Shown: piece after piece, positions 293 to 62,297 of the stretch
Layout of the letters: each line of letters begins with the position of its first letter
Position numbering within the stretch: the stretch's first letter is position 1
Origin: an uncultured Gemmatimonadales bacterium
Lineage (GTDB): Bacteria; Gemmatimonadota; Gemmatimonadetes; Gemmatimonadales; GWC2-71-9
Assembly: GCA_963771275.1 (NCBI GenBank)
Contig: CAVYSW010000003.1
Coordinates: 704,001 to 768,000 of the forward strand
Reading direction: 5' to 3'
DNA: 64,000 bases
Notes under the pieces: generated by a model
Told to the model about the DNA's origin: nothing
Seen by the model: only the letters and a program-made list of their open reading frames with translations
Database searches by the model: none
Made by a program: the position numbers and the translations under genes

Positions 293-423
293 GGTGAAAA
301 GTGAGCAGTGAAAAGTGAAAAGCGCTGCCGCTGCGGGCTCCTCGGAGCGTGGCCACCGCGAGGATTGGCCGTCGCAGAATGCCGGTTTCCCTTTTCCCGT
401 CCTTCTTTTCACTTTTCACTTTC
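293..423. repeat. Inverted tandem-heptamer element (GTGAAAA)n...(TTTTCAC)n, copy 1
   Basis: gtgaaaa gtgagca gtgaaaa gtgaaaa (294-321) and ttttcac ttttcac (406-419). Confidence 0.85.
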
Positions 424-445
424 TTCCACGTAGCGAGATGACGTC

Positions 446-12582: not shown

Positions 12583-12667
12583 GTGGGAAGTGAAGAGTGA
12601 ACAGTGAGAAGTGAAAAGAGGCTCCATGCCGGACCTTCTTTTCACTTTTCACTTTTCACTTTTCACT
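12583..12667. repeat. Inverted tandem-heptamer element, copy 2 (between convergent genes)
   Basis: gtgggaa gtgaaga gtgaaca gtgagaa gtgaaaa ... (ttttcac)x4. Confidence 0.9.
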
Positions 12668-14898: not shown

Positions 14899-14980
14899 GA
14901 GTGAAACGTGAGAAGTGAAAAGCAAGAAAAAAGGGGCCGTCGGCAGACCGGGCCCCAGTTCACTTTTCACGTTTCACTCT
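14899..14980. repeat. Inverted tandem-heptamer element, copy 3, enclosing the leuS terminator
   Basis: gtgaaac gtgagaa gtgaaaa ... agttcac ttttcac gtttcac. Confidence 0.85.
14927..14956 (-). terminator. Rho-independent terminator of leuS
   Basis: Minus strand GGGGCC...GGCCCC stem followed by TTTTTT. Confidence 0.75.
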
Positions 14981-21660: not shown

Positions 21661-21747
21661 GGAGAGTGAAAAGTGAGAAGTGAGAAGTGAAAAGAGAAGC
21701 CCCCAACGCAAACGGCTCTTCACTCTTCGCTTTTCACCCTTCACTCC
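21661..21747. repeat. Inverted tandem-heptamer element, copy 4
   Basis: gtgaaaa gtgagaa gtgagaa gtgaaaa ... tcttcac tcttcgc ttttcac ccttcac; overlaps the stop codon at 21741. Confidence 0.9.
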
Positions 21748-28484: not shown

Positions 28485-28567
28485 GACCGCGGAGACCGCA
28501 GAGAACACAGAAACCGCAAAGCCCTTGTTCCGAACAAGCCTCTGCGAGCTCTGCGTGCTCTGCGGTG
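28485..28567. repeat. Inverted tandem-nonamer element (ACCGCAGAG)n...(CTCTGCGGT)n
   Basis: accgcggag accgcagag aacacagaa accgcaaag ... ctctgcgag ctctgcgtg ctctgcggt, with inner hairpin cttgttc/gaacaag. Confidence 0.85.
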
Positions 28568-31415: not shown

Positions 31416-32618
31416 CTACTCCCCGCCGCCGTACCACACGCGGAAGATCTTCCCGCCTGCGTCGTCCGAGATCAGCAGGCTCCCGTCCGGCGCCACGACC
31501 GGATCCACCGGCCGTCCCCACCAGCTCCGCCCTACCTGCCACCCGCTGACGAAGTCGGTCCACGGCCCGGCGGGCTTGCCGTCCTTCACCGGTACCCGCA
31601 CGACCTTGTAGCCAACCGGAACGCTGCGGTCCCATGAGCCGTGCAACGCGACGAACAGGTCACCGCGGTACTCGGCGGGGAACTGCGTCCCCGTGTAGAA
31701 CGCGAGGCCCAGGGGCGCCGCGTGGGCCGGCAGCGTCACCGCCGGACCGATCGCGTTGGCGCACGTGGGCGCGCTGTCGGCGTACTCCGGGTTCGGCGTG
31801 TTCGGGAGATAGCAGTCGGGCCAGCCGTACCAGCCGCCCTGCCTGAGGATGTTCACGCGATCGGGCGGCGTGTCGTCGCCCAGGCGGTCGCGATCGTTGT
31901 TCGTGGCCCAGATCGCGCCGGTCGCCGGCTCGAGCGCGAGCCCGACCGAGTTCCTGAGGCCCGTCGCGAACGGCGTCTCACCGCTCCCGTCGAGGTCGTA
32001 CCGCACCACCGCGGCCCGGCGCGGGTCACTCTCCCGGCACAGGTTGCAGCTCGATCCGATCGATACGTACAGGTGGTCGTCGCGGAACAGGATCGTCCGG
32101 GTGAAGTGGTTGCCGCCCGTGGGGAGACCGTCGACCACGACCTCGACCCGCCGGCCGGGCGGCACGAGCCGGATCACCCGATGCTCCTCGGCGATATACA
32201 GCGTGTCGCCCCGGAACGCGAGCCCGTGCGGACCGCGCAGGCCCTCGATCACGACCGTCGGCGCCTCGGCCCGGCCGTCCCCGTCGGTGTCCGTCAGGCG
32301 CACCACCTTCCCCGGCCGCCGCAGCGACGCGTAGATCGCCCCGTCGGGACCCGCGGCCATGAACCGCACGTTGTCCAGATCCTCGGCGAACACCCCCACA
32401 CGGAAGCCGCGCGGCACCGTCAGCGCGTGGCCACCCACCTGCTGGGTGACAGACGCCGAATCCGGTGCAGCGCGCTGTTGGGACCTGGCGTCGCCGCCGG
32501 GACCACACGCGGGGAACGCCAAGAGCAGGAGCGGCAGGAGGGGGAGGGCAGAGAACACCGTCGGCCTCAATCCCTGCCCCTCTCCCCCTCTGCCCCCTCT
32601 CCCCCGGTCAGTCAGCAT
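31416..32618 (-). CDS. PQQ-dependent sugar/sorbosone dehydrogenase family lipoprotein
   Basis: SIGSSCN, GLRNSVG, YGWP, AHAAPLG, HGSW, GRPVD, DGSLLISDD. Confidence 0.9.
   Translation of the reverse strand: MLTDRGRGGRGGEGQGLRPTVFSALPLLPLLLLAFPACGPGGDARSQQRAAPDSASVTQQVGGHALTVPRGFRVGVFAEDLDNVRFMAAGPDGAIYASLRRPGKVVRLTDTDGDGRAEAPTVVIEGLRGPHGLAFRGDTLYIAEEHRVIRLVPPGRRVEVVVDGLPTGGNHFTRTILFRDDHLYVSIGSSCNLCRESDPRRAAVVRYDLDGSGETPFATGLRNSVGLALEPATGAIWATNNDRDRLGDDTPPDRVNILRQGGWYGWPDCYLPNTPNPEYADSAPTCANAIGPAVTLPAHAAPLGLAFYTGTQFPAEYRGDLFVALHGSWDRSVPVGYKVVRVPVKDGKPAGPWTDFVSGWQVGRSWWGRPVDPVVAPDGSLLISDDAGGKIFRVWYGGGE
32523..32605. repeat. Inverted nonamer element (GAGCGGCAG family) inside the 5' end of the dehydrogenase CDS
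   Basis: gagcag gagcggcag gagggggag ggcagag - spacer - ccctgcccc tctccccc tctgcccc; same layout as 49593-49687. Confidence 0.7.
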
Positions 32619-47379: not shown

Positions 47380-48603
47380 TCAGCGGTTCCGGATCCTCCC
47401 CCGCACCACGGACGGCAGGTCCAGGGAGTCGAGCGCCAGCGCGTAGAGATGATCGCCGCGTACCACCATCACTCCCGAGATCGCGAAGTCGGTACGCGCC
47501 ATGCCGAGGTAGCGTCCCTCGGGATCGAACACGTCGAACGTCACACCCGCGGGGTTCCTCGCGCCCGCGGGCAGCGTCGGACGCACCCAGAGGTAGTCTC
47601 CGTCATCCACGTACAGCTGATTGACCGCCGGCTGCGTCTTGCCGAACCGGGACTCGTTGACATCCCCTCCCCACTCGCGAAACGGCTTCAGGCGATCGAC
47701 CTCGCGCGCGCGATCGGCGTCGGTGACGGGCACCGACTGGTACTTACGCTCCACGATCCGCACGGTATCCCCGTCGAACGCCTGGAACACGATGCGGTAC
47801 CGATCGGTGATTGCCGAGACCAGAAAGCTCCGCGGATCGATAGTCCACAGCAGGCGGGGGGCGAACGGCACGGCCATGCGAATGATGCTGGTTTCGATGC
47901 CCGAACGCCGGGTGGCTGCAAAGGTCGGGGTCTCGAACTCGGGAATCCGGACCGAGTCCATCACCTCCGCCGAGTCGCCCAGCTCGAGCAGGATCTCATG
48001 CCGGCCCTGGAAGACCCTGCGCTCAGGGCTCTCCACCGCCACGTCGAACACGGCGCCGACGTCGTAAAGGTGACCTTGGTGATCGAAGCCACCCCGCCAT
48101 CTGCCGGACGTCGCTGCTCCGGGTCTCCGGCGGATGGCGAGAAACGTCCCGGCCGTGTCCCACACGGAGTAGCGCGCGGCTTGCGGGTCGACCACCCAGA
48201 GGTGCCCGTCGGGAGCGAAGGCGATCCCGGTCGCGGCGAGTAGCTCTCCCGGCCCTCCACCCTTCCTCCCGAGGGTCCGGACATAGCGACCCAGGGTATC
48301 GAAGACCCGGATGTCCTGAGCCTGGCCATCCAAGACGTATATCCGTCCCGCGGCGTCGACCGCGAGGTCCCGCACCTGTCCGAACGTGTCCGGGCCCTCG
48401 CCGTCGGCGGCGCCGATCGAGAGGTCCCGCTCGATCCGCCAGGCCTGGTCCGGACGCCACCCGCCGGCCGCGGGATTTCGGACCACCACCACGCCGCTGG
48501 CCAGTGTATCCACGCTCCCCCGCCAAGTGCCGTCAGGAGCCCGCTCGCCCGAGCAGGCGGCCAGGAGCCCGGCGAATGCGAGGGCGGCAACGCTACGCGA
48601 CAC
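47380..48603 (-). CDS. 6-bladed beta-propeller lipoprotein 1
   Basis: Lipobox [42 protein letters not shown]. Confidence 0.85.
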
Positions 48604-49039
48604 GGATCGACGTGACGACGTCGTTCTTCCTGATCGCGTTTACCACGTCCTGACCCTTGGTGACCTGGCCGAAGATGGTGTGCTTGCCGTCGAGGTGCGG
48701 CTGCGGCGAGTGGCAGATGAAGAACTGGCTCCCGCCGGTGTCCTTCCCCGCGTGGGCCATCGAGAGCGTCCCCGCCACGTGCTTGTGCGTGTTGAGGTGG
48801 GTCTCGCACTTGATCTTGTAGCCCGGGCCGCCCGAGCCGGCGCGGCGGTCGTTCGGGTCCTTCGAATACGGGTCGCCCCCCTGGATCATGAAATTGTCGA
48901 TCACGCGGTGGAACCGGGTGCCGTCGTAGAACTCCGAGTTGGCGAGCTTCGCGAAGTTGGCGACGGTGCTGGGCACTTCCTTGTCGAACAGCTCGGCGAC
49001 GATGGTCCCGCGGCTGGTCTCGATCGTGGCGGTCTTCAT
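48593..49039 (-). CDS. Cyclophilin-type peptidyl-prolyl isomerase
   Basis: [42 protein letters not shown]. Confidence 0.96.
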
Positions 49040-49151
49040 CAGGCGGCTTCCGGTTGGCGGTTGCTGCAAAGTAACCCGTCAAGGGACTTGCGGTTCCCCT
49101 GTCGCGCCGGCACTCTCCATCCCCTGCGTCCATCCCAGGAGACGTTACTCC

Positions 49152-49592
49152 ATGCCCGCTCGCCCGCTTCTGCTAACCACGATCCTCGCCGCCGCCTGCG
49201 CGACGACAGCTCCGCCGTCAGCCCGAGACCTGACCCCGGTGATCCAGACCATGCTCGACAGCTCGGCGGTCGCGTGGAACGCCGGGAACCTCGACGGGTT
49301 CATGTTCACCTACGCCCACGACTCGGCGACGGCGTTCATGACCCCGGGCGGCCCGGTCTATGGCTATGACGCGATCCGGGCGCGCTACGCGCCGCGGTTC
49401 GAGCCGGGCGGCGTGCGCGACTCCCTCACCTTCACCGACCTCGTCGTACGACCGCTCGACGCCGACTACGCGATCGCCACCGCGCGCTACGTGCTCAGCC
49501 GCGGCGACTCCGTGACGGCGACCGGGCCGTTCACCGTGGTGCTGCGGCGGCAGCGCGAGGGGTGGCGGATGATTCACGACCATACCACGTAG
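49152..49592 (+). CDS. NTF2-like (DUF4440-type) lipoprotein
   Basis: LAAAC lipobox; AWNAGNLDGFM..Y, G.FTVVL, WRMIHDHT. Confidence 0.85.
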   Translation: MPARPLLLTTILAAACATTAPPSARDLTPVIQTMLDSSAVAWNAGNLDGFMFTYAHDSATAFMTPGGPVYGYDAIRARYAPRFEPGGVRDSLTFTDLVVRPLDADYAIATARYVLSRGDSVTATGPFTVVLRRQREGWRMIHDHTT

Positions 49593-49687
49593 GAGCGGCA
49601 GGGGGGGCAGGAGCGGCAGGAGGGGCGGGGGCAGAGATAAGGTATGGAACCGGGCACTAACCCCTGCCCCTCCCCCCTTCTGCCCCC
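49593..49687. repeat. Inverted nonamer element (GAGCGGCAG family), intergenic
   Basis: gagcggcag ggggggcag gagcggcag gaggggcgg gggcagag - spacer - cccctgcccc tcccccc ttctgcccc. Confidence 0.8.
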
Positions 49688-49688
49688 G

Positions 49689-50060
49689 TCACCGGCCGCG
49701 AATCGGCACGAGGGTGCGGCATCCGTACGCATCCGTCGCCGCCACAAGGGACACGCTCACACCCGCCGCCGCCGTGTCGTTGACCGGGAAGACTCGGCAC
49801 GTCTGGATCGGATACAAGGGCCCTCGCCATTCGGTACCGGTGAGCACCAGCAGCCCACCCGACCCGTCGGGGCGGGCATCGCGCACCACCGGATCGGAGC
49901 TGTCCGGCATCAGACCGGCGAGCGTGACGCGCGGGAACACCTCGCCGGTATCGCTGAACCACTGGAGCAGCGGGCGGCCGGGCCAGTCAAAGGGATCGCC
50001 CGGGGTAAGCACCAGCACGGCGTCCCGCCGAGGATCGAACCGGAAAATGCGCTCAAGTCT
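49689..50060 (-). pseudogene. Gene fragment of unknown family (C-terminal ~120 aa only)
   Basis: Protein-like open frame RLERIFRFDPRRDAVLVL...TLVPIRGR preceded by an in-frame stop, without a clear start or RBS. Confidence 0.35.
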
Positions 50061-50081
50061 TCATGAACTACGGATGAAGTC

Positions 50082-51419
50082 CTACTCATGGCCCGCTCTA
50101 ATCTCTGCGCCTCTCCCCTGCGCCCCCGTTGCCCCCTCACCCCCCTTGAGGATCCTCGCCCGCACCACGAACGGCACCTCCAGCTCGTCCTGCGTCACGC
50201 CGTAGATCATCCCATTGCGGAAGACAGGTGTGGGATACTCGCTCAGCCGGAACGGCAGCCGCACACGGCCGAGGTAGCGGCCCTCGGGGTCCAGCACGTC
50301 GAACAGGCGGTCGCGGTCCTTCCGATCGCGCGTGGTAAGCTGCACCCAGAGGTGGCCGTCGTCGGCCAGGTAGAGCGAGCTGAGCGCCGGCTTGGTGCTC
50401 GGTATCCGCGAGCGATCTACCTTTCCGCCCTGGCTGGTGAACCACTTCAGGCCGGCAACCGCGCTGTCCACATCTTCGCTCGTCACGGGAATCGGCTCGA
50501 ACGCCATCTTCACCACCCGCAGCGTGTCGCCCGCGCGACCGAGCCGCAGCAGCTCGTAGGGACCGGTGAGCGCGGCCCAGAAGTCGCCCGCGCTGGTGAG
50601 CCGCCACTCCAGCGCCGGGCTGAAGGGGACTCCGCTGCGCATCCGGCCACCCTGCGCGGTGCGCAACTCGAAGAAGTTCTCGGCACCGGGGTAGCGAGGT
50701 GTGCGGATCGAGTCGATCGGCTTCAAGGTCGAGTCGTAGCGGACCAGCAGTAACTGGAAGTCGCTGGCCTGGAGGTCGGGCGTGTAATTGTAGAACACGC
50801 CGGCCGTGTCGAATCCGCCGGGCCAGGGCATGAACACGAACCCACCCAGCATGTAGTGGCTGCGGACGAACGTCCCGGCCGTGTCGATCACGGAGATGCG
50901 GTTATTCTGGGGATCGATCACCCGGAGGTTCCCGTCCGGCCCCCACGTCATCCCGATCGCCTCAGCGAACTCGCCCGGGCCGCCGCCCTTCCGCCCGATC
51001 GTCCGGACGTACCGTCCGTCGCGGTCGAAGACCCGCAGCTCCTGAGCCTGGCCCTCGAGCACCCAGATCCGCCCGTCGCGATCCACCTCAAGCGCATCGA
51101 CTTGGCCGAACAGGTCGGGGCCGGTGCCTTCGAGCGTACCGATGTGGAGATCCTCGCTGACCCGCCAGCTCGATGCCGAGTCCCAGACTCCCTGAGGCGG
51201 GTTGGTGACGACGATGGTGCCGCTGGGGAGCGTGTCGATGGTGCCCTGCCAGCGTCCCGTGGCCATGTGGGCGTCGGCGCAGGCGAGGAGCGCCAGGAGC
51301 GGCACAGGCAGCAGAGGCGGCAGATGGTGGTCGAGATTGGCAATCCAGCCGCGGACGATCGCTACCAGGTGCAGTATTCTGATGCCGCGATCGATCAGGC
51401 CTCGGTTATTCTCGGGCAT
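50082..51419 (-). CDS. 6-bladed beta-propeller lipoprotein 2 (atypical N-terminus)
   Basis: LLALLAC lipobox; [32 protein letters not shown]; paralog of 47380-48603. Confidence 0.85.
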   Translation of the reverse strand: MPENNRGLIDRGIRILHLVAIVRGWIANLDHHLPPLLPVPLLALLACADAHMATGRWQGTIDTLPSGTIVVTNPPQGVWDSASSWRVSEDLHIGTLEGTGPDLFGQVDALEVDRDGRIWVLEGQAQELRVFDRDGRYVRTIGRKGGGPGEFAEAIGMTWGPDGNLRVIDPQNNRISVIDTAGTFVRSHYMLGGFVFMPWPGGFDTAGVFYNYTPDLQASDFQLLLVRYDSTLKPIDSIRTPRYPGAENFFELRTAQGGRMRSGVPFSPALEWRLTSAGDFWAALTGPYELLRLGRAGDTLRVVKMAFEPIPVTSEDVDSAVAGLKWFTSQGGKVDRSRIPSTKPALSSLYLADDGHLWVQLTTRDRKDRDRLFDVLDPEGRYLGRVRLPFRLSEYPTPVFRNGMIYGVTQDELEVPFVVRARILKGGEGATGAQGRGAEIRAGHE

Positions 51420-51513
51420 GCATGGTCACCGTCGACTGGTGGTTTGGCGGCAGTCGCAGACCCTGGTGCAGCGTAACAACTACTACACAGATCAGGCAAC
51501 CGCGCCCCACTTC

Positions 51514-52820
51514 TTACCGTGACCCCCGCAGGAGTGCAGTCGGCAATGGCGGTATCATCGTGGCGAGGAACACCGGGATCCCCAAAGTGTCCGGGACCAC
51601 GAACCACGCGATGGAATCGCGAACGATGTCGGGCAGGCGGGCGTGGGGCACGCTCAAGGAGCCGCGATACCCCGTGCGGGCGTGATACAGATATCGGCGA
51701 TCGCACTGTCCCCTCCCCAGCGCAACGCCCAGGCAGTCGAATCCGACCCCAGCACGACATCGATGTACCGAGGCATGTACGTGGCCCACTTGCCCTCGAA
51801 CAGTTGGCGCTGGGACACCCCGAGAAACGGCAGTTTCTCGTCCGGGTCCAGGGTATGTCGCCGCAACTCGCGCTCGCGTTCTGCGCGGTCGACCTTCCTC
51901 GGCGCGAGCTTGACGGCAAAAGACGAGTAGAGTGCAGCCGACTCACCGAAGAACCACACTCCATATCGGTCGTAGGAGATGGCGACCAGGAGCCCGCCGT
52001 TCCCATCCCAAGTTCTGCCGTGACTGTTGAGGTAGGGGCGCTGTGCCGGGTACCCCCTCATGTCCAGTCCCGCGAACTGTACCCAGCTGTTCCGTAGAGC
52101 CAGAACGGTCGTCCAGGTGCTAGAGTCATCCGGGACCACGCCTTCGACCGACAGCATGGTGCGGACATGGGGATCAGATGAGTTGACGTCCCCCTTCCCG
52201 CTCCGGCTCGCGAGCAATCTGTCGTACGCGCGCGCTAGATGCACGTCGTAGGTAGCGACAAGCGGTGTCCTATAGGTCTGGAGCGTCGCTAGGTACTTGC
52301 CGTTTCGAGCGTACCACTGGATTCCACGACTATCGGCTAGCGCGAAGCCCTCGGGGAATGCGGCCAGGCGATTCCTCGCAGTTCCCCTCATCGCAAGACC
52401 GACGAAGTTCAACTCACCGGGACCAGGACCCTCTCGACCGAACGTGAGCCGGGTGACGCCCAGCGTATCCATTACGATCACCCGGCTGAGCATCATGTCG
52501 AGAACCGCCAGCAATTCCTCCTCTGGATGCCAGTCGATCCCGCCGATGAGGCTGAGAGGCTCGGATGACCTGACGTGCCAACGAATGCGCAATGGCGCTG
52601 CCAAAGGCACGACATGCTCACCATCCTGCGCCAGCAGGCTCCGCTCGCACATCACCTGCTCATCGGCTGATCGAGGGTCGGTTACTCGCTGGGCGCGCCG
52701 CCCCTCCGCTTCGCTCCTGCAACCAGCCAGCGAGACGCCGAGGAGGGTGCATAGGGCCAGAAGCAACACGGCCCCATGTCCGATGGTTGCGCACGATCCG
52801 GCACATCGGGAGCTTGTCAC
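51514..52820 (-). pseudogene. Divergent 6-bladed beta-propeller lipoprotein 3 with frameshift near the 3' end, lower GC
   Basis: SLAGC lipobox, FGREGPGPGEL; family-like C-terminus (LYHARTGYRGSL...PDTLGIPVF) continues in another frame to 51514. Confidence 0.7.
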
Positions 52821-53010
52821 TAGCTCACGCTCCCAGCGTGCATCGGCGACGACGGGTCGATACGGCGCAGCCCCGACATAGTTCAAGGTGTTCTTGGTGC
52901 CGAACGACCATCACTATTGATCGATCCTTCGACAGTTGTCCCACGTCGAGCAGCCGAGTTGGAGGTGATCTGCCCATCGACAAGGGGGCGAAGTCGCCGC
53001 GTAGAGAAAT

Positions 53011-53250
53011 CGGGACTTGCAGTGCGTGGCGCAACCCGCGACTCATCTATCGTCTGACCAAACAGCTTCCGCCGGGCCGAGTTGCGTCGCTTCCTCGATA
53101 GCTCCATTGGCAGCCTGGCCGAGATCGACGCCATGATGGACACGCTCGGCACGCTCTACGATCTCGACGCGTCGCTATGCACTGAGATCGAGTCCACTCG
53201 CCGCACCGTCAACGCTGGCCTATTCGCGCTCCTGCGCGGCCGGGGGCGCG
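53011..53250 (+). pseudogene. Four-helix-bundle (23S rRNA IVS protein/Avd-like) gene remnant with internal deletion
   Basis: LIYRLTKQLPP joined out of frame to RAELRRFLDSSIGSLAEIDAMM; the central QLRRAA.S...NIAEG segment is absent. Confidence 0.7.
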
Positions 53251-53251
53251 G

Positions 53252-56200
53252 TCACGCGGGAGCGCCTGCCGCTCCGGCCGCGTCTGCCGCCCCTGCCGCT
53301 TCTGCCGCTCCGGCCGCTCCCGCCACCACCCCCGCGGCCACCCGCTCCCGCTCCGGCCCCCGCTCCAGCAGCGAGTAGATCGCCGGCGTCACGGTGAGCA
53401 CCAGCAGGGTCGAGCTCGACAGCCCGCCGATCAGCGACAGGCCCAGCGCATTCCAGATGTTCGAGTCCGCGTAGTCGCTGAAGAACACCAGCGGCAGCAG
53501 CCCGAAGATGGTGGTGAAGCTGGTCATCAGGATGGGTCGCACCCGTTCGATGGTTCCGCGAATGGTCGCCTCGCGGAGCGGGAGGCCGTACGAGCGGCGC
53601 AGCAGATTGATGTGGTCCACGAGGAGGATCGCGTTGTTCACCACGATGCCGCCCATCATGATCACGCCGATCACGGCTTCGCGGGTGAAGCTCGCGTCGG
53701 TGAAGTAGAAGATCAGGAACACGCCGATCAGCGCCATCGGGACGGTGAGCAGCACGCAGAGCGGCTGCCGCAGCGACTCGAACAGCGCCGCGGTCACCAT
53801 GAACACCAGCACGAGCGAGATGGCCAGCACGCCGTAGAGCTGCTTGGCTTCCTCCGTCGACCAGCGCCATTCCTGCTCGCCCTCGATGGTGTAGCCCTCG
53901 GGGAGCTGGGTCGCCGCGACCACCGCGTCGCGCACCCGGTCGCCCAGCTTGGTGGGGCCGCGGAACTCGTAGCTCACATAGCGCTGATACTGCTGGTTCT
54001 CCCGCTCGATGCGGCTCAGCACCTCCCGGTCGCCCACGGTCGCGACGTCGCCCAGGCGGACCCCCTGGCCGTCCGGCGTCTGGAGCAGCAGCTCGGGCAG
54101 CTCGTGGATGTCCATGTTCTCGTTGTTGGCGAGCTTGACGTCGAAGCGCAGCTCGTCGCCCGCGACCCGCACGTACCCCCGCCGTACGGTGCCCTGCACC
54201 GCCGAGGCGACCTGATAGACCACGTCTTCCGCGGTGAGCCCGTGCAGGCCCAGCCGCTGGCGGTCGATGGCCAGCACGAACTCGCTGGCCTTGTCGCTGG
54301 TGTACCAGCCCCCGGCCGAGTTTACGTCCACGTCCCGAATCCGCGAGAAGCGCTTGAGCCGTTGTCCCAGATCTTCGGCGATGTCCCGGACCGTCTCGTA
54401 GTTGTAGCCCAGGATCTTGATCGAGTAGTTGGGCGGACTGGCGCCGCCCCCGTAGAACGACGGCCCGTAGCCGTACACCCGCACCTCGGCCCCGCCGAAC
54501 AGGTTGCTGTAGGCCACCATCTGCTCCTTGATGGCCACCGGGATCTGGGTGTTTTCGAGGGAATCGGGGAACGTCACGCGGATGAAGGCGTACTGCGGCG
54601 CCACCTGGGTCACGTAGCGTTCGACCTCGGGGGTCTGTGCCAGCTTCTGCTCGAAGAAGCGGGCGAGCTCGTCGGTGCGCTCCAGCTCCTCGCCGCGCGG
54701 CAGATTGATCTGGATGCTGATGTAGGTATCCTGCCCGAACCACGACCGCCACAGCACCCCGCGCGTCACGTACTTGTTGAACACGTAGTACGACCCGCCG
54801 AGCCCCGCGAGCGCCAGGAGGATCGTGACCCACGGCCAGCGGAGGGTGAACCTGATCATCGTGGAGTAGACGCGGACGTAGATGGGGCGGGCGGGCGGGC
54901 CACCGGCGGCAGGAACGCTGGCCGCGGGAATGGTGCCACCGCCAGTCCGCCGTCCCGCACTTGCGCCGAGCGCCTTGGCCGCCAGCGCCGGAATGAACGT
55001 GAACGCCACGAACAGGCTCGCGAGCAGGCTCATCCCGACCACGATCGCGAGCGGGATGTAGTAGGCCCTGAGCTCACCCTGGAGGTACACGAACGGGATG
55101 AACACGATCACCGTGGTGAGCGTGGAAGCGAGCACCGCGAGCACGACCTCCTTGGCGCCTTCCTCGGCGGCGCCCACGACCCCGGTCGCCGTGCCCGCTC
55201 CGCGCTGGCCCGTCTGCCATTTTCGGTAGATGTTCTCCAGAACGACGATGGCGTTGTCGACGATCAAGCCGAATCCCATCGCCAGGCCCATCAGGGTCAG
55301 CACGTTGAGCGAGTAGCCGCCGAAGTAGATCAGGTTGAGCGTGATGAGGATCGAGAACGCGACCGTGGCGAACACGATGGCGGCGGAGCGGAACGACCGG
55401 AGGAACGCCAGCAGGATCACGAACACGACGGCCGCCGAGATGATGGCCCGCACGCGCAGGTCCTGAAGCTGCGTCTTGATGGCGTCGCTCTCGTCGGCAT
55501 CGAGCAGCACGCGCACGCCGGCCGGGTGGGTGGTCGAAAGCTCGGCCATCCTGCCCTTCACCCGGTCGGCGACGGCCACCGTGTTGACCCCCACCTCCTT
55601 GTGGATGGTGAACGCCACCGCCGGCATGCCGTCGATGCGGTAGAGGCTCTGGGGCTCCTCGTAGGTGTCATGCACGGTGGCCACGTCGCTCACGCGGACG
55701 ATGCGGCCGCGGTTGGTGAGCAGCGGCGCGCGCCGCACCTCATCCGGGGAGTCGGTGCGCTGCCGGATGGCCAGGGTCCGTTGGATGCCGTCCACCTCCA
55801 CCACGCCGGCGTCGGTCACGTACTCCAACTGCATGATCCGCTGCCAGATGACCCGGGGGAGGAGCCCCAGCGCGTTCACCTTGTCTTCGTCGAGCACGAT
55901 CTCGAGCACGCGCTCGCGGCCGCCGTACGCGTCGATGCCCGCGACGCCGTCGACTTGGAGCACTTCCGGGGTGACCTGCTCGTCGAGGTAGGCGCGCAGC
56001 GCTTCGAGCGTATAGGGACCGGTGAGGGTGTAGCGCAGGAATGGGCGCTGCTGCTGGCGGAACTCCTCGGGAACGTAGGGCGTGATGGTCGGCCCGATAA
56101 CGCCCTCGGGCAGATCCTCCTCGATCGCCGCGAGCCGCTCCGACAGCTCCAGGCGTGCGAAGTCCATGTCGGTGCCGCGCGCGAACTTGACCGTGATCTG

Positions 56201-56473
56201 CGCGCGGCCTGAACCCCGGACTTCGCTCGAGACGGACGAGATCTCGTCCACGCCTCGCACTTGCTGCACTGCGGCCTCGAGCGGCGCCGTGACGAACGCT
56301 TCCATCGTCTCGGGCGACGCCCGGCTCCAGTCGGCGGTCAGCGAAAGCTGGGGGAGCTCGGTGTTGGGCAACAGCTCGATGGGGATGCCGCGCCACGCCG
56401 CTACCCCCAGGAGGGCGACGGCGAAGTACGCCATCGAAACGGCGACGGGCCGGCGGATCGCGAGCCGGATCAC
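53252..56473 (-). CDS. RND efflux permease subunit 2 (AcrB/AcrD/AcrF family)
   Basis: AIRRPVA, GLIVDNAIVVLENI, GIVVNNAILLVD, RVRPILMTS. Confidence 0.95.
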   Translation of the reverse strand: MIRLAIRRPVAVSMAYFAVALLGVAAWRGIPIELLPNTELPQLSLTADWSRASPETMEAFVTAPLEAAVQQVRGVDEISSVSSEVRGSGRAQITVKFARGTDMDFARLELSERLAAIEEDLPEGVIGPTITPYVPEEFRQQQRPFLRYTLTGPYTLEALRAYLDEQVTPEVLQVDGVAGIDAYGGRERVLEIVLDEDKVNALGLLPRVIWQRIMQLEYVTDAGVVEVDGIQRTLAIRQRTDSPDEVRRAPLLTNRGRIVRVSDVATVHDTYEEPQSLYRIDGMPAVAFTIHKEVGVNTVAVADRVKGRMAELSTTHPAGVRVLLDADESDAIKTQLQDLRVRAIISAAVVFVILLAFLRSFRSAAIVFATVAFSILITLNLIYFGGYSLNVLTLMGLAMGFGLIVDNAIVVLENIYRKWQTGQRGAGTATGVVGAAEEGAKEVVLAVLASTLTTVIVFIPFVYLQGELRAYYIPLAIVVGMSLLASLFVAFTFIPALAAKALGASAGRRTGGGTIPAASVPAAGGPPARPIYVRVYSTMIRFTLRWPWVTILLALAGLGGSYYVFNKYVTRGVLWRSWFGQDTYISIQINLPRGEELERTDELARFFEQKLAQTPEVERYVTQVAPQYAFIRVTFPDSLENTQIPVAIKEQMVAYSNLFGGAEVRVYGYGPSFYGGGASPPNYSIKILGYNYETVRDIAEDLGQRLKRFSRIRDVDVNSAGGWYTSDKASEFVLAIDRQRLGLHGLTAEDVVYQVASAVQGTVRRGYVRVAGDELRFDVKLANNENMDIHELPELLLQTPDGQGVRLGDVATVGDREVLSRIERENQQYQRYVSYEFRGPTKLGDRVRDAVVAATQLPEGYTIEGEQEWRWSTEEAKQLYGVLAISLVLVFMVTAALFESLRQPLCVLLTVPMALIGVFLIFYFTDASFTREAVIGVIMMGGIVVNNAILLVDHINLLRRSYGLPLREATIRGTIERVRPILMTSFTTIFGLLPLVFFSDYADSNIWNALGLSLIGGLSSSTLLVLTVTPAIYSLLERGPERERVAAGVVAGAAGAAEAAGAADAAGAAGAPA
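53265..53327. repeat. Seven tandem nonamers (CCTGCCGCT family) in the RND C-terminal tail, 3' of the four-helix remnant
   Basis: cctgccgct ccggccgcg tctgccgcc cctgccgct tctgccgct ccggccgct cccgccacc. Confidence 0.85.
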
Positions 56474-56500
56474 CGACGGCCGCTCCTGCCGCTCCTGCCG

Positions 56501-57757
56501 CTACTGCCGCCGCAATGCATACAGCCTCACATGCTCGACATCGAGCTCGTCGCGCCAGGTCCCGATGACGTAGTCACGGCCGATCTCCCGGACCGACAGG
56601 CCGGGCGGCGTCTCGACGGGGCCGAGCGCCAGCCCGTCCGGTCCGAACACGACCCAGTGGCGCCGCTCGTCACCCGGCCGGGCGACACCGCGCACCCAGA
56701 GGTCCCCCAGCGGGTCCGTCTTGAGGTCGTCGAACGCGGGGAACGTGCTGGGGAACGGAATGTCCTGGTACAGCCGCTCGGTGCTTTGGCGGGAGCCGGC
56801 ATCCGCACGCGCGAGCCGGTCCGCCTTGTGCCGCGCGATGTCGCCGCCGGTGACGGCGACCGGGGTCCACGCCAGGCGGATGATCTCCTCCGGCACGCCA
56901 CTCGCCGCGTACCGGGTGATCTCGTAGCGTGCGCTGTGTCCCGCGTAGAACCGGTGGCCCGCGATCACCACCAAGGTGTTCGTGCCGAACGGCAGGCTGC
57001 TGGCCATGGCGGAGTTGGTCCGACTCACGACGTACCACTCGGGTCCCGGGAACCGGCCAATCGAATCGCGCAGCGCGCCGGTCGAGTCGAACACGAGGAG
57101 CGGCATCGAGTCGCGCACGACCCGGGTCCCTTCGCCGCTTGGTCGAAACACGAAGCCGCGGTTGCACAGCCACGAGCCATCGGCAAAACGGCCAATGAGA
57201 AACGGCATCCCGGCCGGGAACTCCAGGGTGAAGGACCGGACGAACCGCCCCTCGGCGTCGAAGAGGGACACACGGCGGACGCTCCAGTCGTACGCGGCTA
57301 CCGTGTCGCCCGAGAGCGCGAGCACGCTTCCCAGTTGTTCGAACTCGCCCGGCCCGCCGCCCTTTCGACCGGCGGTCGTGAGATGCTCGCCCGTTGCGTC
57401 GAAGAACCGCAGCTCCTGGGAGCCGCCGTTCGCCACCACGATCCGGCCATCCGACAGGCGCACCGCGCCCCCGACCTGCGACAGCTGGTATGCCTCGTCG
57501 CCCTCGAGCACGCCGATGTCCACCCTCGGCTCGGCCTCCACGGTCCAGAGCGGCGGCGCGTTCGGGGCGAGCGCCGGATTCTCTACAATGCGAATCCCCG
57601 CCGAGTCCCGGATGACTGCCGCGGCCCCGCCCGCCTCCCCACCACAGCCGGATGCGAGAGAACAGAGAAGAGACGAGACGAGCAGGGCAGCGCTCACTCG
57701 CCGGTTCACTCGCTCCGTCTCTGCGCCACCTGCCGCTCCTGCGGTTGCGCTCATCAC
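56501..57757 (-). CDS. 6-bladed beta-propeller lipoprotein 4, between the two RND permease genes
   Basis: LASGC lipobox; [33 protein letters not shown]. Confidence 0.85.
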   Translation of the reverse strand: MMSATAGAAGGAETERVNRRVSAALLVSSLLCSLASGCGGEAGGAAAVIRDSAGIRIVENPALAPNAPPLWTVEAEPRVDIGVLEGDEAYQLSQVGGAVRLSDGRIVVANGGSQELRFFDATGEHLTTAGRKGGGPGEFEQLGSVLALSGDTVAAYDWSVRRVSLFDAEGRFVRSFTLEFPAGMPFLIGRFADGSWLCNRGFVFRPSGEGTRVVRDSMPLLVFDSTGALRDSIGRFPGPEWYVVSRTNSAMASSLPFGTNTLVVIAGHRFYAGHSARYEITRYAASGVPEEIIRLAWTPVAVTGGDIARHKADRLARADAGSRQSTERLYQDIPFPSTFPAFDDLKTDPLGDLWVRGVARPGDERRHWVVFGPDGLALGPVETPPGLSVREIGRDYVIGTWRDELDVEHVRLYALRRQ

Positions 57758-60930: not shown

Positions 60931-62297
60931 GGCCGCACGGGCCGGCCGGCCCGCTCCTCCAGCGCCACGACGGCTTCCGCGAACGCGTAGCGCGCGTTGG
61001 TGAGCTGGCGTTCCTCCTGCGAAGCGCGGTCGATCAGGATCTGGAGGTTGGCGAACGAGATCGCGCCGATGGCGTAGCGCTCGCGCGCCAGCCGCAACCG
61101 CTCGGAGCTGTAGCCCGAGGCGCGCTGCGCCAGGCTCAAGGCCTGGTAGGCGTTCTGCACGTCGATCACCGCCGAGCGGATGTCCTGCTCCAGCCCCAGC
61201 TGCCCAGCGCGGAGCGACTCATCCGCGTTCCGCGCGTCGGCGTCGGCCGCGGCCACCTGGGCCGAGGTCTGAAACCCTGTGAACAGGGGGAGGTTCACGC
61301 TCAGGCTGAAGCTGAAGGACCGGTCCCGCGGGTTGAGCTTGAAGAACGCGCTGTAGGCGTCGTCGTTCGTGAAGCGCTGGAACGACGCGCCGAGCTGGAC
61401 CGTCGGCCAGCGCCCGCCGCTGGCAACGGACGCCCGGAGGTGCGCCGCGTCGGCCGACGCCGCGAGGCGCTGAATCTGGGGGTGGTCCGTGAGCGCGAGC
61501 GCGACGAGCGAATCCGGGCGCAGCGCCGCCGGGTCCCACGCGGGCGGCAGCTCCCCCACGACCGCGAACTCGATCGGCTCCGTAAGGCCCAGCTGCTCAC
61601 GCAGCGAGACGACCGCCTTCTGGGCGTCGCCTCGCGTCCGGGCGAGCTGCAGCTCCGCGTTGGCGACGTCCGCCTCGGCGCCGAGCACATCTTCCCGGTT
61701 GGCTGCCGCCACGCGAAACAGGCGCTCGGTATTGTCACGCTGTTCCTGGGACGATGCGAGCAGGCGCTCTTCCAGCACGATCAGCTGGCTGGTACGCAGG
61801 GCTTCGTAGAAGCGGCGCGTCGTCTCTGCATCCACCTGGCTCCGCGTCGCCCAGCGGGTCGCGTCAGCCGCATCCTGGTTGGCGCGGGCGGCCCGCAGCG
61901 TCTTGAAGTTGCGCAGGCCGTCGAACAGAGTGAGCCCAGCCGAGAGGCTCTGGCTGGCGCTGCTACCCTTGTAGCTGATTACCGTGTCCCGGCCGAGGGG
62001 TTGGCCGAAGATGTCCAGCGCGGTCACACGCCGCGAGTCGTTGCCGGAAAATGACATCCGCGCGTCGAGCGACGGCATGAACGCGCCCCAGCCGGCGCGC
62101 ACCTGCGCCCCTTGGGCCCGGTAGGTGTTCACGGCCTGCAGGTACTGCGGGTTCCGCTCCCGCGCGATCGCGATCGCGTCGTCCAGGGTGAGGCGCGCCG
62201 GAACGGCCGTGCGCGCCTGGGCCGCCACTGGCGGCGCGAACCCTGCCGCCCCTGCCGCCCCTGCCACCACTGCCACCACTGCCGCCGCGATCCTCAT
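60927..62297 (-). CDS. TolC family outer-membrane efflux protein
   Basis: LTLDDAIAIARERNP, LTLFDG, LPLFTG, ARERYAIG. Confidence 0.92.
   Translation of the reverse strand: MRIAAAVVAVVAGAAGAAGFAPPVAAQARTAVPARLTLDDAIAIARERNPQYLQAVNTYRAQGAQVRAGWGAFMPSLDARMSFSGNDSRRVTALDIFGQPLGRDTVISYKGSSASQSLSAGLTLFDGLRNFKTLRAARANQDAADATRWATRSQVDAETTRRFYEALRTSQLIVLEERLLASSQEQRDNTERLFRVAAANREDVLGAEADVANAELQLARTRGDAQKAVVSLREQLGLTEPIEFAVVGELPPAWDPAALRPDSLVALALTDHPQIQRLAASADAAHLRASVASGGRWPTVQLGASFQRFTNDDAYSAFFKLNPRDRSFSFSLSVNLPLFTGFQTSAQVAAADADARNADESLRAGQLGLEQDIRSAVIDVQNAYQALSLAQRASGYSSERLRLARERYAIGAISFANLQILIDRASQEERQLTNARYAFAEAVVALEERAGRPVRP

What the first reader, a model, noticed from the sequence alone, without database searches (positions are those of the whole stretch)
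51288..53327. A ~2 kb lower-GC cassette bracketed by inverted nonamer arrays and containing a four-helix-bundle remnant
Seen: a purine-arm array (gagcgccag gagcggcac aggcagcag aggcggcag, 51288-51323) and a pyrimidine-arm array of seven CCTGCCGCT-like units (53265-53327). They face each other as the arms of the empty elements at 49593 and 32523 do. Between them lie visibly AT-richer DNA, a divergent propeller lipoprotein gene and a decayed four-helix-bundle gene abutting the right arm. Established: that protein family includes 23S rRNA intervening-sequence proteins and is structurally related to DGR Avd. Inference: this is a filled repeat-hairpin element that has captured cargo, i.e. a candidate integrase-free system for inserting or swapping genes at gene junctions. 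This is the best candidate here for an undescribed system.
Basis: partly seen in the sequence, partly recalled or inferred. Interest (0 to 1): 0.85.

Follow-up and report, generated by a model that had tools for sequence, protein, structure and literature searches.

The report
Interrupted IVS-like four-helix-bundle hairpin element
Two mirror-image repeat arrays 2 kb apart are the arms of an old selfish stem-loop element, of the kind known from ribosomal RNA genes, lodged here between two ordinary genes; its own small gene decayed with a foreign lipoprotein gene sitting inside it, and nothing shows that it captures genes.

Summary
The arrays at 51288-51323 and 53265-53327 exist and are 84% complementary over 38 nt. 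Only 1 of 2000 random window pairs scored as high. The DNA between them is GC-poorer: 62% against 68-69%. It holds a lipoprotein gene and a decayed four-helix-bundle (4HB, PF05635) gene.

Two same-genus genomes (G004, G005) carry an intact 4HB gene between complementary 8-mer arrays at the same junction, between the RND pump gene and propeller-1, with no propeller-2. So the arrays are the arms of an inherited element. Propeller-2 (about 1.67 kb, atypical GC3, no homolog in 40 relatives) is most likely a later insertion. The 4HB gene lost its start codon and its conserved core.

This architecture is general. Inverted arrays flank 4HB genes in 23 of 30 loci of the order, 4 of 5 in this genome and 34 of 63 metagenome loci. 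The published Coxiella 23S rRNA intervening sequence has the same layout: heptamer repeats, a stem cut by RNase III, and an S23p ORF.

The "integrase-free gene-capture system" reading is not supported. This is the only element seen with gene-sized cargo, and any insertion into this spacer would land inside the element.

Verdict: a broken member of an IVS-like element family in a non-rRNA setting.

The parts
51288..51323 (.). Left (purine/G-rich) arm: four 9-mer-like units. On the minus strand it is also translated as LPPLLPVPLLAL of the propeller-1 signal peptide.
   Evidence: G004 and G005 have a left arm at the same position relative to the propeller-1 lipobox.
53265..53327 (.). Right (pyrimidine/C-rich) arm: CCTGCCGCT x6.7. 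On the minus strand it is also translated as the AAGAAEAAGAADAAGAAG tail of the RND pump.
   Evidence: G004 and G005 have a right arm at the same position, between the 4HB stop and the conserved end of RND.
52994..53249 (+). Four-helix-bundle (PF05635/TIGR02436) pseudogene. An N-terminal fragment (52994-53098) and a C-terminal half (53070-53249) lie in different frames. The start codon is lost and about 30 codons holding the conserved R..S...N..E core are deleted.
   Evidence: The C-half is 58% identical to residues 59-117 of the intact G004 ortholog, E 3e-22. The N-fragment matches residues 13-28, E 0.003. Pfam gives only 12.4 bits, E 0.19. Frames are shown.
51324..52990 (.). About 1.67 kb of lower-GC DNA with no counterpart in G004 or G005. 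It holds the new 5' extension and start of propeller-1, propeller-2 and its upstream region.
   Evidence: blastn finds homology to G004/G005 only at 51000-51252, 53074-53150 and from 53330 on. GC is 62.4%.
51514..52886 (-). Propeller-2: a lipoprotein of a rare family distantly related to propeller-1. It is frameshifted at about 51691 in this assembly and in run X1, and in frame in contigs of runs X2 and X3.
   Evidence: A 2-nt difference at 51691 appears in X2/X3. GC3 is 0.74 against 0.88-0.93 in the neighbours. No homolog at E<=1e-5 in 40 relatives.
50082..51419 (-). Propeller-1: a DUF5128-type 6-bladed beta-propeller lipoprotein, the left neighbour of the element.
   Evidence: Pfam PF17170, E 6.9e-10. 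Orthologs at 53-73% identity in G004, G005, G007 and G014.
53252..56473 (-). RND (AcrB-type) efflux permease, the right neighbour of the element.
   Evidence: PF00873, E 1.6e-184, with the model ending at residue 1036 of 1073. Orthologs at 72-78% identity.
49591..49690 (.). Empty hairpin of the same GGCAG/GGGGC type, directly after the stop of the upstream gene. G004 and G005 lack it: their gaps there are 15 and 67 nt.
   Evidence: -72 kcal/mol.

Best explanation
The two arrays are the left and right arms of a stem-loop element of the S23p / four-helix-bundle (PF05635, TIGR02436) kind. Its architecture matches the 23S rRNA intervening sequences: inverted arms made of short tandem units, with a roughly 120-codon 4HB gene in the loop. 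This copy sits between an RND pump gene and a lipoprotein gene instead of in rRNA. It was already there in the common ancestor of this genome and two congeners (shown). The flanking reading frames run into the arms, so the arms now encode the pump's C-terminal tail and part of the lipoprotein's signal peptide (shown). In this lineage about 1.67 kb of compositionally foreign DNA carrying a second lipoprotein gene (propeller-2) came to lie between the left arm and the 4HB gene. The 4HB gene lost its start codon and its conserved core (shown that these differ from the relatives; the direction, insertion here rather than loss there, is inferred). The arms remain 84% complementary. This is either because the split is recent or because they are now held by coding constraint (inferred). 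By analogy with rRNA IVSs, the intact elements probably work at the RNA level: a transcript crossing both arms folds into a long stem that RNase III can cut (inferred, not tested here). The present copy is a dead element. The 'cargo' is an insertion into it, not something it captured.
For: In G004 and G005 the order is RND - right arm - intact 4HB - about 90-110 nt - left arm - propeller-1, and the two genomes are colinear at 72% over 1091 nt. The G004 gene matches PF05635 at 1.4e-22 and TIGR02436 at 1e-19. The window remnant is its ortholog. Arm units differ between genomes (8-mers GGCAGCGT and GGCAGNGC against 9-mers here), yet the two arms are complementary within each genome. G014 and G007 have RND followed directly by propeller-1, with no arrays and ordinary signal peptides. 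The arm match is rare by chance: 1 of 2000. Propeller-2 has no homolog in 40 relatives, GC3 of 0.74 against 0.88-0.93, and homologs only in 5 scattered metagenome/NCBI proteins. Family context: inverted flank matches scoring 16 or more occur in 23 of 30 order-level 4HB loci (22 of 29 without the unpublished G020), against a maximum of 15 in 150 random controls. They occur in 4 of 5 own-genome 4HB genes, 4 of 8 plasmid loci fetched out of 27 hits, and 34 of 63 metagenome loci, 27 of those 34 with period 7. In PMC4990558 (passages) the Coxiella IVS has a 28-bp terminal stem, tandem GACAGAT heptamers, an S23p ORF in the loop and excision by RNase III.
Against: The direction of change is not proven. 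No outgroup carries the element, and the RND genes of G001 and G002 are closer to this genome's (78% identity) than those of G004 and G005 (74-75%), yet G001 and G002 lack both 4HB and propeller-1 here. Both arrays are low-complexity coding sequence of a type common in this genome (18+18 TRF arrays of the two related 9-mer units, mostly solitary), so part of the complementarity could be compositional. No RNA data exist, so folding and RNase III cleavage are untested. Mismatches in the arms show no consistent G-U bias: 37 against 20 in one set and 37 against 46 in another. That result gives no support to selection on an RNA stem.
Confidence: 0.7

Rival explanations
1. Propeller-2 was already inside the element in the common ancestor. 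G004 and G005 lost it by deletion, so the long-loop form is the older one.
For: The direction cannot be polarised with the genomes at hand. The junction is very fluid: at least five different gene contents downstream of RND occur in 8 relatives. Propeller-2 is in frame in sibling strains, so it is a maintained gene rather than junk.
Against: Propeller-2 has no homolog in any of 40 relatives and has atypical GC and GC3. G004 and G005 are colinear with each other and have typical arm-to-gene spacings. Other 4HB elements have their arms within about 30-190 nt of the gene.
Confidence: 0.12
2. One reading: the arms plus the 4HB gene form an active, integrase-free cassette system that takes up or swaps genes at gene junctions, and propeller-2 is captured cargo.
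For: Gene content at this junction varies among relatives. Arrays of these families sit at many gene boundaries, and one gene just outside the window (C3:769318-770496) is bracketed by composite arrays. In cyanobacterial plasmids 4HB genes sit inside cas operons. The genome's most abundant array families are the arm types of its four intact 4HB elements.
Against: This is the only element seen with gene-sized extra DNA between its arms, out of the 35 other 4HB genes tested and the metagenome set. No recombinase, transposase or reverse transcriptase lies in the segment or, for RT, in the genome. Propeller-2 carries no arm-like ends. The 4HB gene was destroyed, not preserved. No contig laid joins the two arms (51288-51323 and 53265-53327) directly, though contigs cannot show absence. 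The one joint seen (49621 to 53283) has a 27-nt side in a repeat.
Confidence: 0.07
3. Chance: the two arrays are unrelated low-complexity coding stretches (Leu/Pro-rich signal peptide and Ala/Gly-rich tail, GC-rich codons) that happen to be complementary.
For: Both lie in open reading frames. Similar arrays encode a TolC-like signal peptide at 62241-62286 and lie in the short spacer before the RND start at 56479-56510. The array at 49591 also matches the right arm with score 18.
Against: G004 and G005 have arms of intact elements at the same positions on both sides. The 4HB remnant abuts the right arm at the usual distance. The match is seen in 1 of 2000 random pairs. Orthologous genes in genomes without the element have no arrays.
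Confidence: 0.05

Closest known systems
23S rRNA intervening sequences carrying an S23p ORF (Coxiella burnetii helix-45 IVS; also Leptospira and others)
   Same: Both have terminal inverted repeats forming a long stem, tandem heptamer repeats in the 5' arm with copy number varying between strains, a four-helix-bundle S23p ORF in the loop, and an ORF that tends to decay. The Coxiella element is called a selfish element (PMC4990558, passages read). The G004 ortholog belongs to the same Pfam family.
   Different: The element here lies between protein-coding genes, not in rRNA. Its arms overlap the coding ends of the neighbours. The 4HB gene is antisense to the flanking genes. The loop carries an extra 1.67 kb. 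RNase III cutting is untested here.
Avd, the accessory protein of diversity-generating retroelements, and Xcc0516 (PDB 2GSC)
   Same: Same fold family. The G004 ortholog hits 2GSC at E 1.7e-14 and the Avd model weakly at E 0.023. PMC10053308 (passages) relates PF05635 to Avd and cites the Xcc0516 structure as assembled from five four-helix bundles.
   Different: No reverse transcriptase was found in this genome and no template or variable repeat pair. This is not a DGR.
STRR heptamer repeats of heterocystous cyanobacteria (recalled from Mazel et al. 1990; not read here)
   Same: Both are tandem heptamers in intergenic DNA. In cyanobacterial plasmids fetched here, 4HB genes are flanked by such arrays: Anabaena sp. 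90 GGTGACA/CTGTCAC, Picosynechococcus GGAGATA, Pseudanabaena AAAAGCT.
   Different: To my recollection STRRs have not been tied to a gene. The units here are 9-mers and partly coding.
REP/BIME and MITE-type palindromic repeats
   Same: Both form abundant intergenic hairpins in families. 'Empty' copies share arms with a gene-bearing copy: in G031 the 56-69-nt hairpin arms are 80-88% identical to the arms around its 4HB gene.
   Different: No transposase of the RAYT or IS type is associated. The arms are tandem 7-9-mers whose unit differs from family to family. No target-site duplication was seen.

Membership tests
PF05635 / TIGR02436 four-helix-bundle (23S rRNA IVS, S23p) protein | Profile match above the curated cut-off | tested here: not met
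   The window remnant scores 12.4 bits, E 0.19, against a cut-off of 33.8, and was not found in the whole-genome scan at E<=10. Its intact ortholog in G004 scores 80.4 bits and TIGR02436 70.8 bits. The window copy is therefore a pseudogene of this family, shown through the ortholog.
PF05635 / TIGR02436 four-helix-bundle (23S rRNA IVS, S23p) protein | Conserved core motif GxxRxxxSxxxNxxE (as given in PMC3936711, passage read) | tested here: not met
   Residues 29-58 of the G004 ortholog, which hold this motif, have no counterpart in the window. The two surviving fragments lie in different frames.
IVS-like 4HB stem-loop element (inverted tandem arrays around a PF05635 gene) | Two arms complementary to each other beyond chance | tested here: met
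   38 nt at 84%, score 20. Random pairs reach 20 or more in 1 of 2000.
IVS-like 4HB stem-loop element (inverted tandem arrays around a PF05635 gene) | Arms made of tandem 7-9-nt units, with the G-rich arm at the 5' side | tested here: met
   Period 9, with 6.7 and 2.6 copies. The left arm is purine-rich. The same polarity holds in 27 of 33 and 40 of 40 other elements. This polarity reads the same on both strands, so it is a property of the inverted repeat, not of gene orientation.
IVS-like 4HB stem-loop element (inverted tandem arrays around a PF05635 gene) | Arms within roughly 20-200 nt of the 4HB gene | tested here: not met
   The right arm begins about 15 nt after the 4HB-homologous region. 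The left arm is about 1.67 kb upstream. In other elements the distances are 29-188 nt upstream and 23-185 nt downstream.
23S rRNA intervening sequence in the strict sense | Inserted in helix 25 or 45 of a 23S rRNA gene | tested here: not met
   The neighbours are an RND permease gene and a lipoprotein gene. No rRNA match appears in the Rfam scan of 48500-54500.
23S rRNA intervening sequence in the strict sense | Stem cut by RNase III | not testable with these tools
   No RNA run holds the stretch.
Diversity-generating retroelement | A reverse transcriptase accompanying the Avd-like protein | tested here: not met
   PF00078 gives 0 matches at E<=0.001 in the 96.7%-complete genome.
Integron cassette, transposon or MITE | An associated recombinase or transposase, or target-site duplications | tested here: not met
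   No such family was found among the six ORFs of 50082-56473 that were scanned, which omit the shorter overlapping ORFs. No duplication is visible at the arm ends. Duplications were checked by eye only.

The most novel reading that the evidence does not exclude
PF05635 four-helix-bundle genes are the gene-bearing cores of a cross-phylum family of IVS-like stem-loop elements whose arms are tandem heptamers (sometimes 8- or 9-mers). The abundant 'empty' tandem-arm hairpins of these genomes, and possibly the cyanobacterial STRR repeats, are their gene-less derivatives. The Avd-like pentamer would recognise its own arm repeats and promote their spread or upkeep without any encoded recombinase or reverse transcriptase. 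Gene junctions occupied by such elements, like this one, would become hot spots where neighbouring genes are extended, replaced or inserted.
Probability: 0.25. Interest if true: 0.8.

Novelty: new variant of a known kind. Interest (0 to 1): 0.5.

Why it matters
For this locus little is at stake: it is a dead selfish element with a later insertion. The family behind it matters more. What the S23p/4HB proteins do outside diversity-generating retroelements is unknown. So is how intervening sequences arose and spread (both are stated as open in PMC4990558). As far as I recall, the origin of tandem-heptamer repeats in bacterial intergenic DNA is also unexplained.

Here 4HB genes outside rRNA show the same stem-plus-heptamer architecture in most cases, in one order of Gemmatimonadota-like genomes, in cyanobacterial and alphaproteobacterial plasmids, and in diverse metagenomes. 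A genome's commonest hairpin families tend to be the arm types of its own 4HB elements. That makes the autonomous/non-autonomous idea testable in cultured organisms.

The arms can also be absorbed into neighbouring genes, as a signal peptide or a C-terminal tail. That is a concrete way for such elements to reshape proteins.

In five literature searches I found only the Coxiella IVS paper describing heptamers beside an S23p ORF. I found none describing the general, non-rRNA pattern. Subscription journals are outside that library.

Tried and rejected
- RNA evidence: no RNA holder is listed for the stretch.
- Laid contigs: X2 and X3 have no cover at 52942-53249 or 49554-49861. Holes in contigs prove nothing. 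The only long joint (49621 to 53283, side 27 nt, one contig) looks like a repeat-induced assembly join.
- G-U bias test on arm mismatches, to tell RNA-level from DNA-level pairing: 37 G:T against 20 A:C in 33 elements, but 37 against 46 in 40 metagenome elements. Inconclusive.
- Test of whether the empty AGTGAAA hairpins are deletion derivatives of the AGTGAAA-armed 4HB element: some loops resemble each other, but none resembles the inner flanks of the filled element.
- Search for other long-loop pairs in this genome: confounded by clusters of same-family hairpins. The three candidates examined are ordinary genes between separate arrays.
- Rfam: only sub-threshold microRNA-like matches to the 49.6-kb hairpin.
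- Pfam and NCBIfam on propeller-2: nothing.
- Hairpin density against 4HB gene count in 7 genomes. Genomes with 0 genes had 0-2 tandem-arm hairpins per 210-304 kb. Genomes with 5-13 genes had 10-60 per Mb. G031 had 2.7 per Mb plus six copies of its own non-tandem family. The trend is suggestive only: samples are small and the genomes are kin.
- AGTGAAA x3 pattern across 41 genomes: hits in 9 genomes, all 7 of the genus plus G013 and one hit in G019. The tool's control pattern is nearly the same repeat, so it is not a valid control.
- Technical failures: the first hairpin scan timed out and was rewritten. The earlier-findings tool was not open.


Full report
What is at the coordinates.

The window is G000:C3:704001-768000, in a 3.86-Mb genome of about 70% GC. 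TRF reports CCTGCCGCT x6.7 at 53265-53324 and a 9-mer x2.6 at 51302-51324. The repeat finder pairs 51287-51324 with 53283-53320: 38 nt, 84% complementary, 1958 nt apart. On an ungapped +1/-2 scale this match scores 20. In 2000 random pairs of 400-nt windows about 1.5 kb apart in the same genome, the median was 10, three pairs reached 18 or more, and one reached 20. The predicted duplex is -83 kcal/mol, z = -5.9 against shuffles. The DNA between the arrays (51324-52990) is 62.4% GC, against 67.9% and 67.7% in the two flanking genes and 69.4% for the window.

Both arrays also lie in reading frames.

The left array lies in the minus-strand ORF 50082-51419. This is a DUF5128-type beta-propeller lipoprotein ('propeller-1'). 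The array encodes LPPLLPVPLLAL, just before the lipobox LLAC. The right array lies in the last 30 codons of the minus-strand RND permease 53252-56473, whose Pfam match ends at residue 1036 of 1073. There it encodes AAGAAEAAGAADAAGAAG.

Related GGCAG-type 9-mer arrays are common in this genome: TRF finds 18 + 18 of the two units. Most are solitary. Of the two others in this window that I translated, the one at 62241-62286 encodes a TolC-like signal peptide. The one at 56479-56510 lies in the short spacer between the upstream gene's stop and the RND start. Taken alone, this would favour a chance explanation.

Comparative genomics decides against chance.

RND orthologs at 72-78% identity were found in relatives, and their downstream regions were fetched. 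In two same-genus genomes, G004 and G005, the order is RND, right arm, an intact 4HB gene on the opposite strand, about 90-110 nt, left arm, propeller-1. There is no propeller-2. The G004 gene matches PF05635 at 1.4e-22 and TIGR02436 at 1e-19.

Their arms are 8-mers: GGCAGCGT x4 against CACGCTGC x3 in G004, and GGCAGNGC against GCTGCCRC in G005. They differ from the 9-mers here, yet the two arms are complementary within each genome. In all three genomes the left arm is translated as the N-terminal part of the propeller-1 signal peptide, and the right arm as the RND tail.

G014 and G007, from other genera, have RND followed directly by propeller-1, with no arrays and ordinary signal peptides. 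G001 and G002 have a small membrane ORF instead. G003 has a different propeller gene, and G019 has unrelated DNA. So the element is inherited at this junction, the window arrays are its arms by position, and the junction is unusually fluid.

The interior.

The 4HB remnant's C-terminal half (53070-53249) is 58% identical to residues 59-117 of the G004 protein, E 3e-22. A fragment in another frame (52994-53098) matches residues 13-28, E 0.003. Residues 29-58 are missing. They hold the family's conserved motif, given as GxxRxxxSxxxNxxE in PMC3936711 (passage). No start codon remains. Pfam gives the remnant only 12.4 bits.

Propeller-2 has a lipobox and five homologs at 39-58% identity in the large protein collection. 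It has a profile-level link to propeller-1: hhalign 85%, E 6e-6 over the last 73 columns. It has no homolog at E<=1e-5 in 40 relatives. Its GC3 is 0.74, against 0.88 and 0.93 in its neighbours.

In this assembly it is frameshifted: its last 50 or so residues continue in ORF 51514-51789. Contigs of two runs from another study (X2, X3) lack 2 nt at 51691, which restores the frame. Run X1 agrees with the window. blastn finds homology to G004/G005 only at 51000-51252, 53074-53150 and from 53330 on. So about 1.67 kb (51324-52990) is new relative to those genomes.

The family behind it.

This genome has five PF05635 genes. Four are bracketed by inverted tandem heptamers: AGTGAAA, GCCGATA, GCGTGTA and CAATGTT. 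These are also its four most abundant array families. They mostly occur as 'empty' hairpins with loops of 10-120 nt.

PF05635 genes occur in 36 of 41 genomes of the order. For the best locus of each of 30 genomes, I scored the best inverted match between the 400 nt upstream and the 400 nt downstream.
- It scored 16 or more in 23 loci (22 of 29 without the unpublished G020).
- It scored 14-15 in four more.
- It scored below 14 in three. One of these is cut by a contig end. Another has arms at 43 and 459 nt.
- 16 of the 23 have arm self-periodicity of 0.7 or more at period 7-9.
- 150 random positions in G000 gave a median of 10 and a maximum of 15.

4HB proteins 78% or more identical share the arm unit. 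Those at 62% or less do not.

Outside the order, 27 plasmid records hold a relative, mostly from cyanobacteria. Of the 8 I fetched:
- 4 have inverted arrays scoring 16 or more (Gemmatirosa, Azospirillum, Anabaena sp. 90, Pseudanabaena).
- Picosynechococcus scores 14, with clear GGAGATA heptamers.
- Nostoc punctiforme has a heptamer array upstream only.
- Nostoc 7120 has arrays on both sides that are not complementary, and Calothrix has none.

Several of these genes sit between cas genes, as noted in PMC3936711.

Of 80 metagenome loci, 63 had 300 nt or more of flank on both sides. 34 of these scored 16 or more and 42 scored 14 or more. A control with the downstream flank reversed gave 7. 30 of the 34 had periodic arms, 27 with period 7. 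That sample was drawn with a six-protein alignment and is biased toward one subfamily.

The 5' arm is the G-rich one in 27 of 33 and 40 of 40 elements. This polarity reads the same on both strands, so it is a property of the inverted repeat. The window's arms obey it.

Comparison with what is known.

PMC4990558 (passages read) describes the Coxiella 23S rRNA IVS as a 428-nt selfish element. It has a 28-bp terminal stem, tandem GACAGAT heptamers upstream of an S23p ORF with copy number varying between strains, excision by RNase III, and an ORF under reductive evolution. It cites the older ideas that IVSs are transposition remnants, or mobile elements whose ORF once served mobility. PMC10053308 (passages) relates PF05635 to Avd and cites the Xcc0516 structure as built from five four-helix bundles. 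The G004 ortholog hits that chain, 2GSC, at 1.7e-14.

So the architecture is a known kind. Four things differ here: the non-rRNA setting, the absorption of the arms into neighbouring genes, the families of empty hairpins, and the extra gene in this copy.

Why I do not accept 'cargo capture'.
- This is the only element seen with gene-sized extra DNA.
- No recombinase is present, and the genome has no reverse transcriptase.
- Propeller-2 has no arm-like ends.
- The 4HB gene was destroyed.
- The element fills nearly the whole spacer, so any insertion there would land in it.

What remains open is whether such elements make junctions fragile. The variety of gene contents here, and the second hairpin plus a repeated 354-nt fragment between the upstream gene and propeller-1, hint at that.

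How it most likely works.

Shown: an inherited 4HB stem-loop element, arms translated by the neighbours, extra foreign-looking DNA in this lineage, and a dead 4HB gene.

Inferred: the extra DNA is an insertion (0.7 against 0.12 for loss in the relatives). Intact elements act as RNA stems open to RNase III, by analogy with rRNA IVSs. The arm-mismatch spectra give no support for RNA-level selection, and there is no RNA data.

The bolder reading is that the 4HB protein partners with its own arm repeats and that the empty hairpins are its dependents. Three results are consistent with it: the match between arm types and dominant hairpin families in G000 and G031, the lineage-restricted array families, and the higher hairpin density in 4HB-rich genomes. 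Those data are few and the genomes are not independent.

Noticed in passing
window 294-426, 12588-12667, 14900-14977, 21665-21746: Four hairpins whose arms are tandem AGTGAAA / TTTCACT heptamers. They belong to a family of about 20 such hairpins in the genome, one of which (C4:9090-9589) holds an intact four-helix-bundle gene.
   Followed up: partly
window 28485-28564: A hairpin with 9-mer arms, GACCGCAGA x3.8 facing CTCTGCGAG x2.8. This CGCAGAG family has about 15 arrays in the genome and no 4HB gene with matching arms was found.
   Followed up: no
window 32520-32612: In this 'empty' hairpin the purine arm is at the same time the coding sequence of a lipoprotein signal peptide on the minus strand (GTG start, MFSALPLLPLLLLAFPAC). 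The pyrimidine arm forms the gene's purine-rich 5' leader. This is a second case of an arm absorbed into a gene start.
   Followed up: partly
window 49690-50044: A 354-nt segment next to the 49.6-kb hairpin has two further copies in the genome at 89% identity (C3:1446523-1446876 and C3:1453874-1454227). In the laid contigs it shows raised depth and many variant letters. It is absent from this junction in G004 and G005.
   Followed up: partly
window 56479-56510: A solitary GCCGCTCCT x3.6 array lies in the short gap between the stop of the upstream membrane-fusion-protein-like gene and the GTG start of the RND gene. On the coding strand it reads as repeated GGAG-containing units just before the start codon.
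   Followed up: no
window 62241-62286: A CCCTGCCGC x5.1 array encodes AAVVAVVAGAAGAAG in the signal peptide of a TolC-like outer-membrane protein gene on the minus strand. It shows that arrays of this type can be purely coding.
   Followed up: partly
G000:C3:769250-770570 (1.3 kb beyond the window's end): A 393-codon secreted-protein gene is bracketed on both sides by composite arrays: a GCCGATA/GCCGTTA-type array followed by TTTCACT, in the same orientation on both sides.
   Followed up: partly
L034 and L142, L146, L156-L158 (genome G031): In this genome the 4HB gene is flanked by a 75-nt non-tandem inverted repeat. Six gene-less hairpins with the same arms (80-88% identity, loops of 53-63 nt) occur in 376 kb sampled, a MITE-like pairing.
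   Followed up: partly
L094, L097, L098 (cyanobacterial plasmids): Four-helix-bundle genes with flanking heptamer arrays sit inside CRISPR-Cas operons, between cas6 and cas4 and between cas10 and cmr3, in the same orientation as the cas genes.
   Followed up: no
G000:C4 7-17 kb, C6 12-17 kb, C10 827-833 kb, C9 229-242 kb: Tandem-arm hairpins of one family cluster in neighbourhoods of a few kb, several near contig ends. Adjacent arrays of different families also occur, for example C3:1279189-1279356.
   Followed up: no
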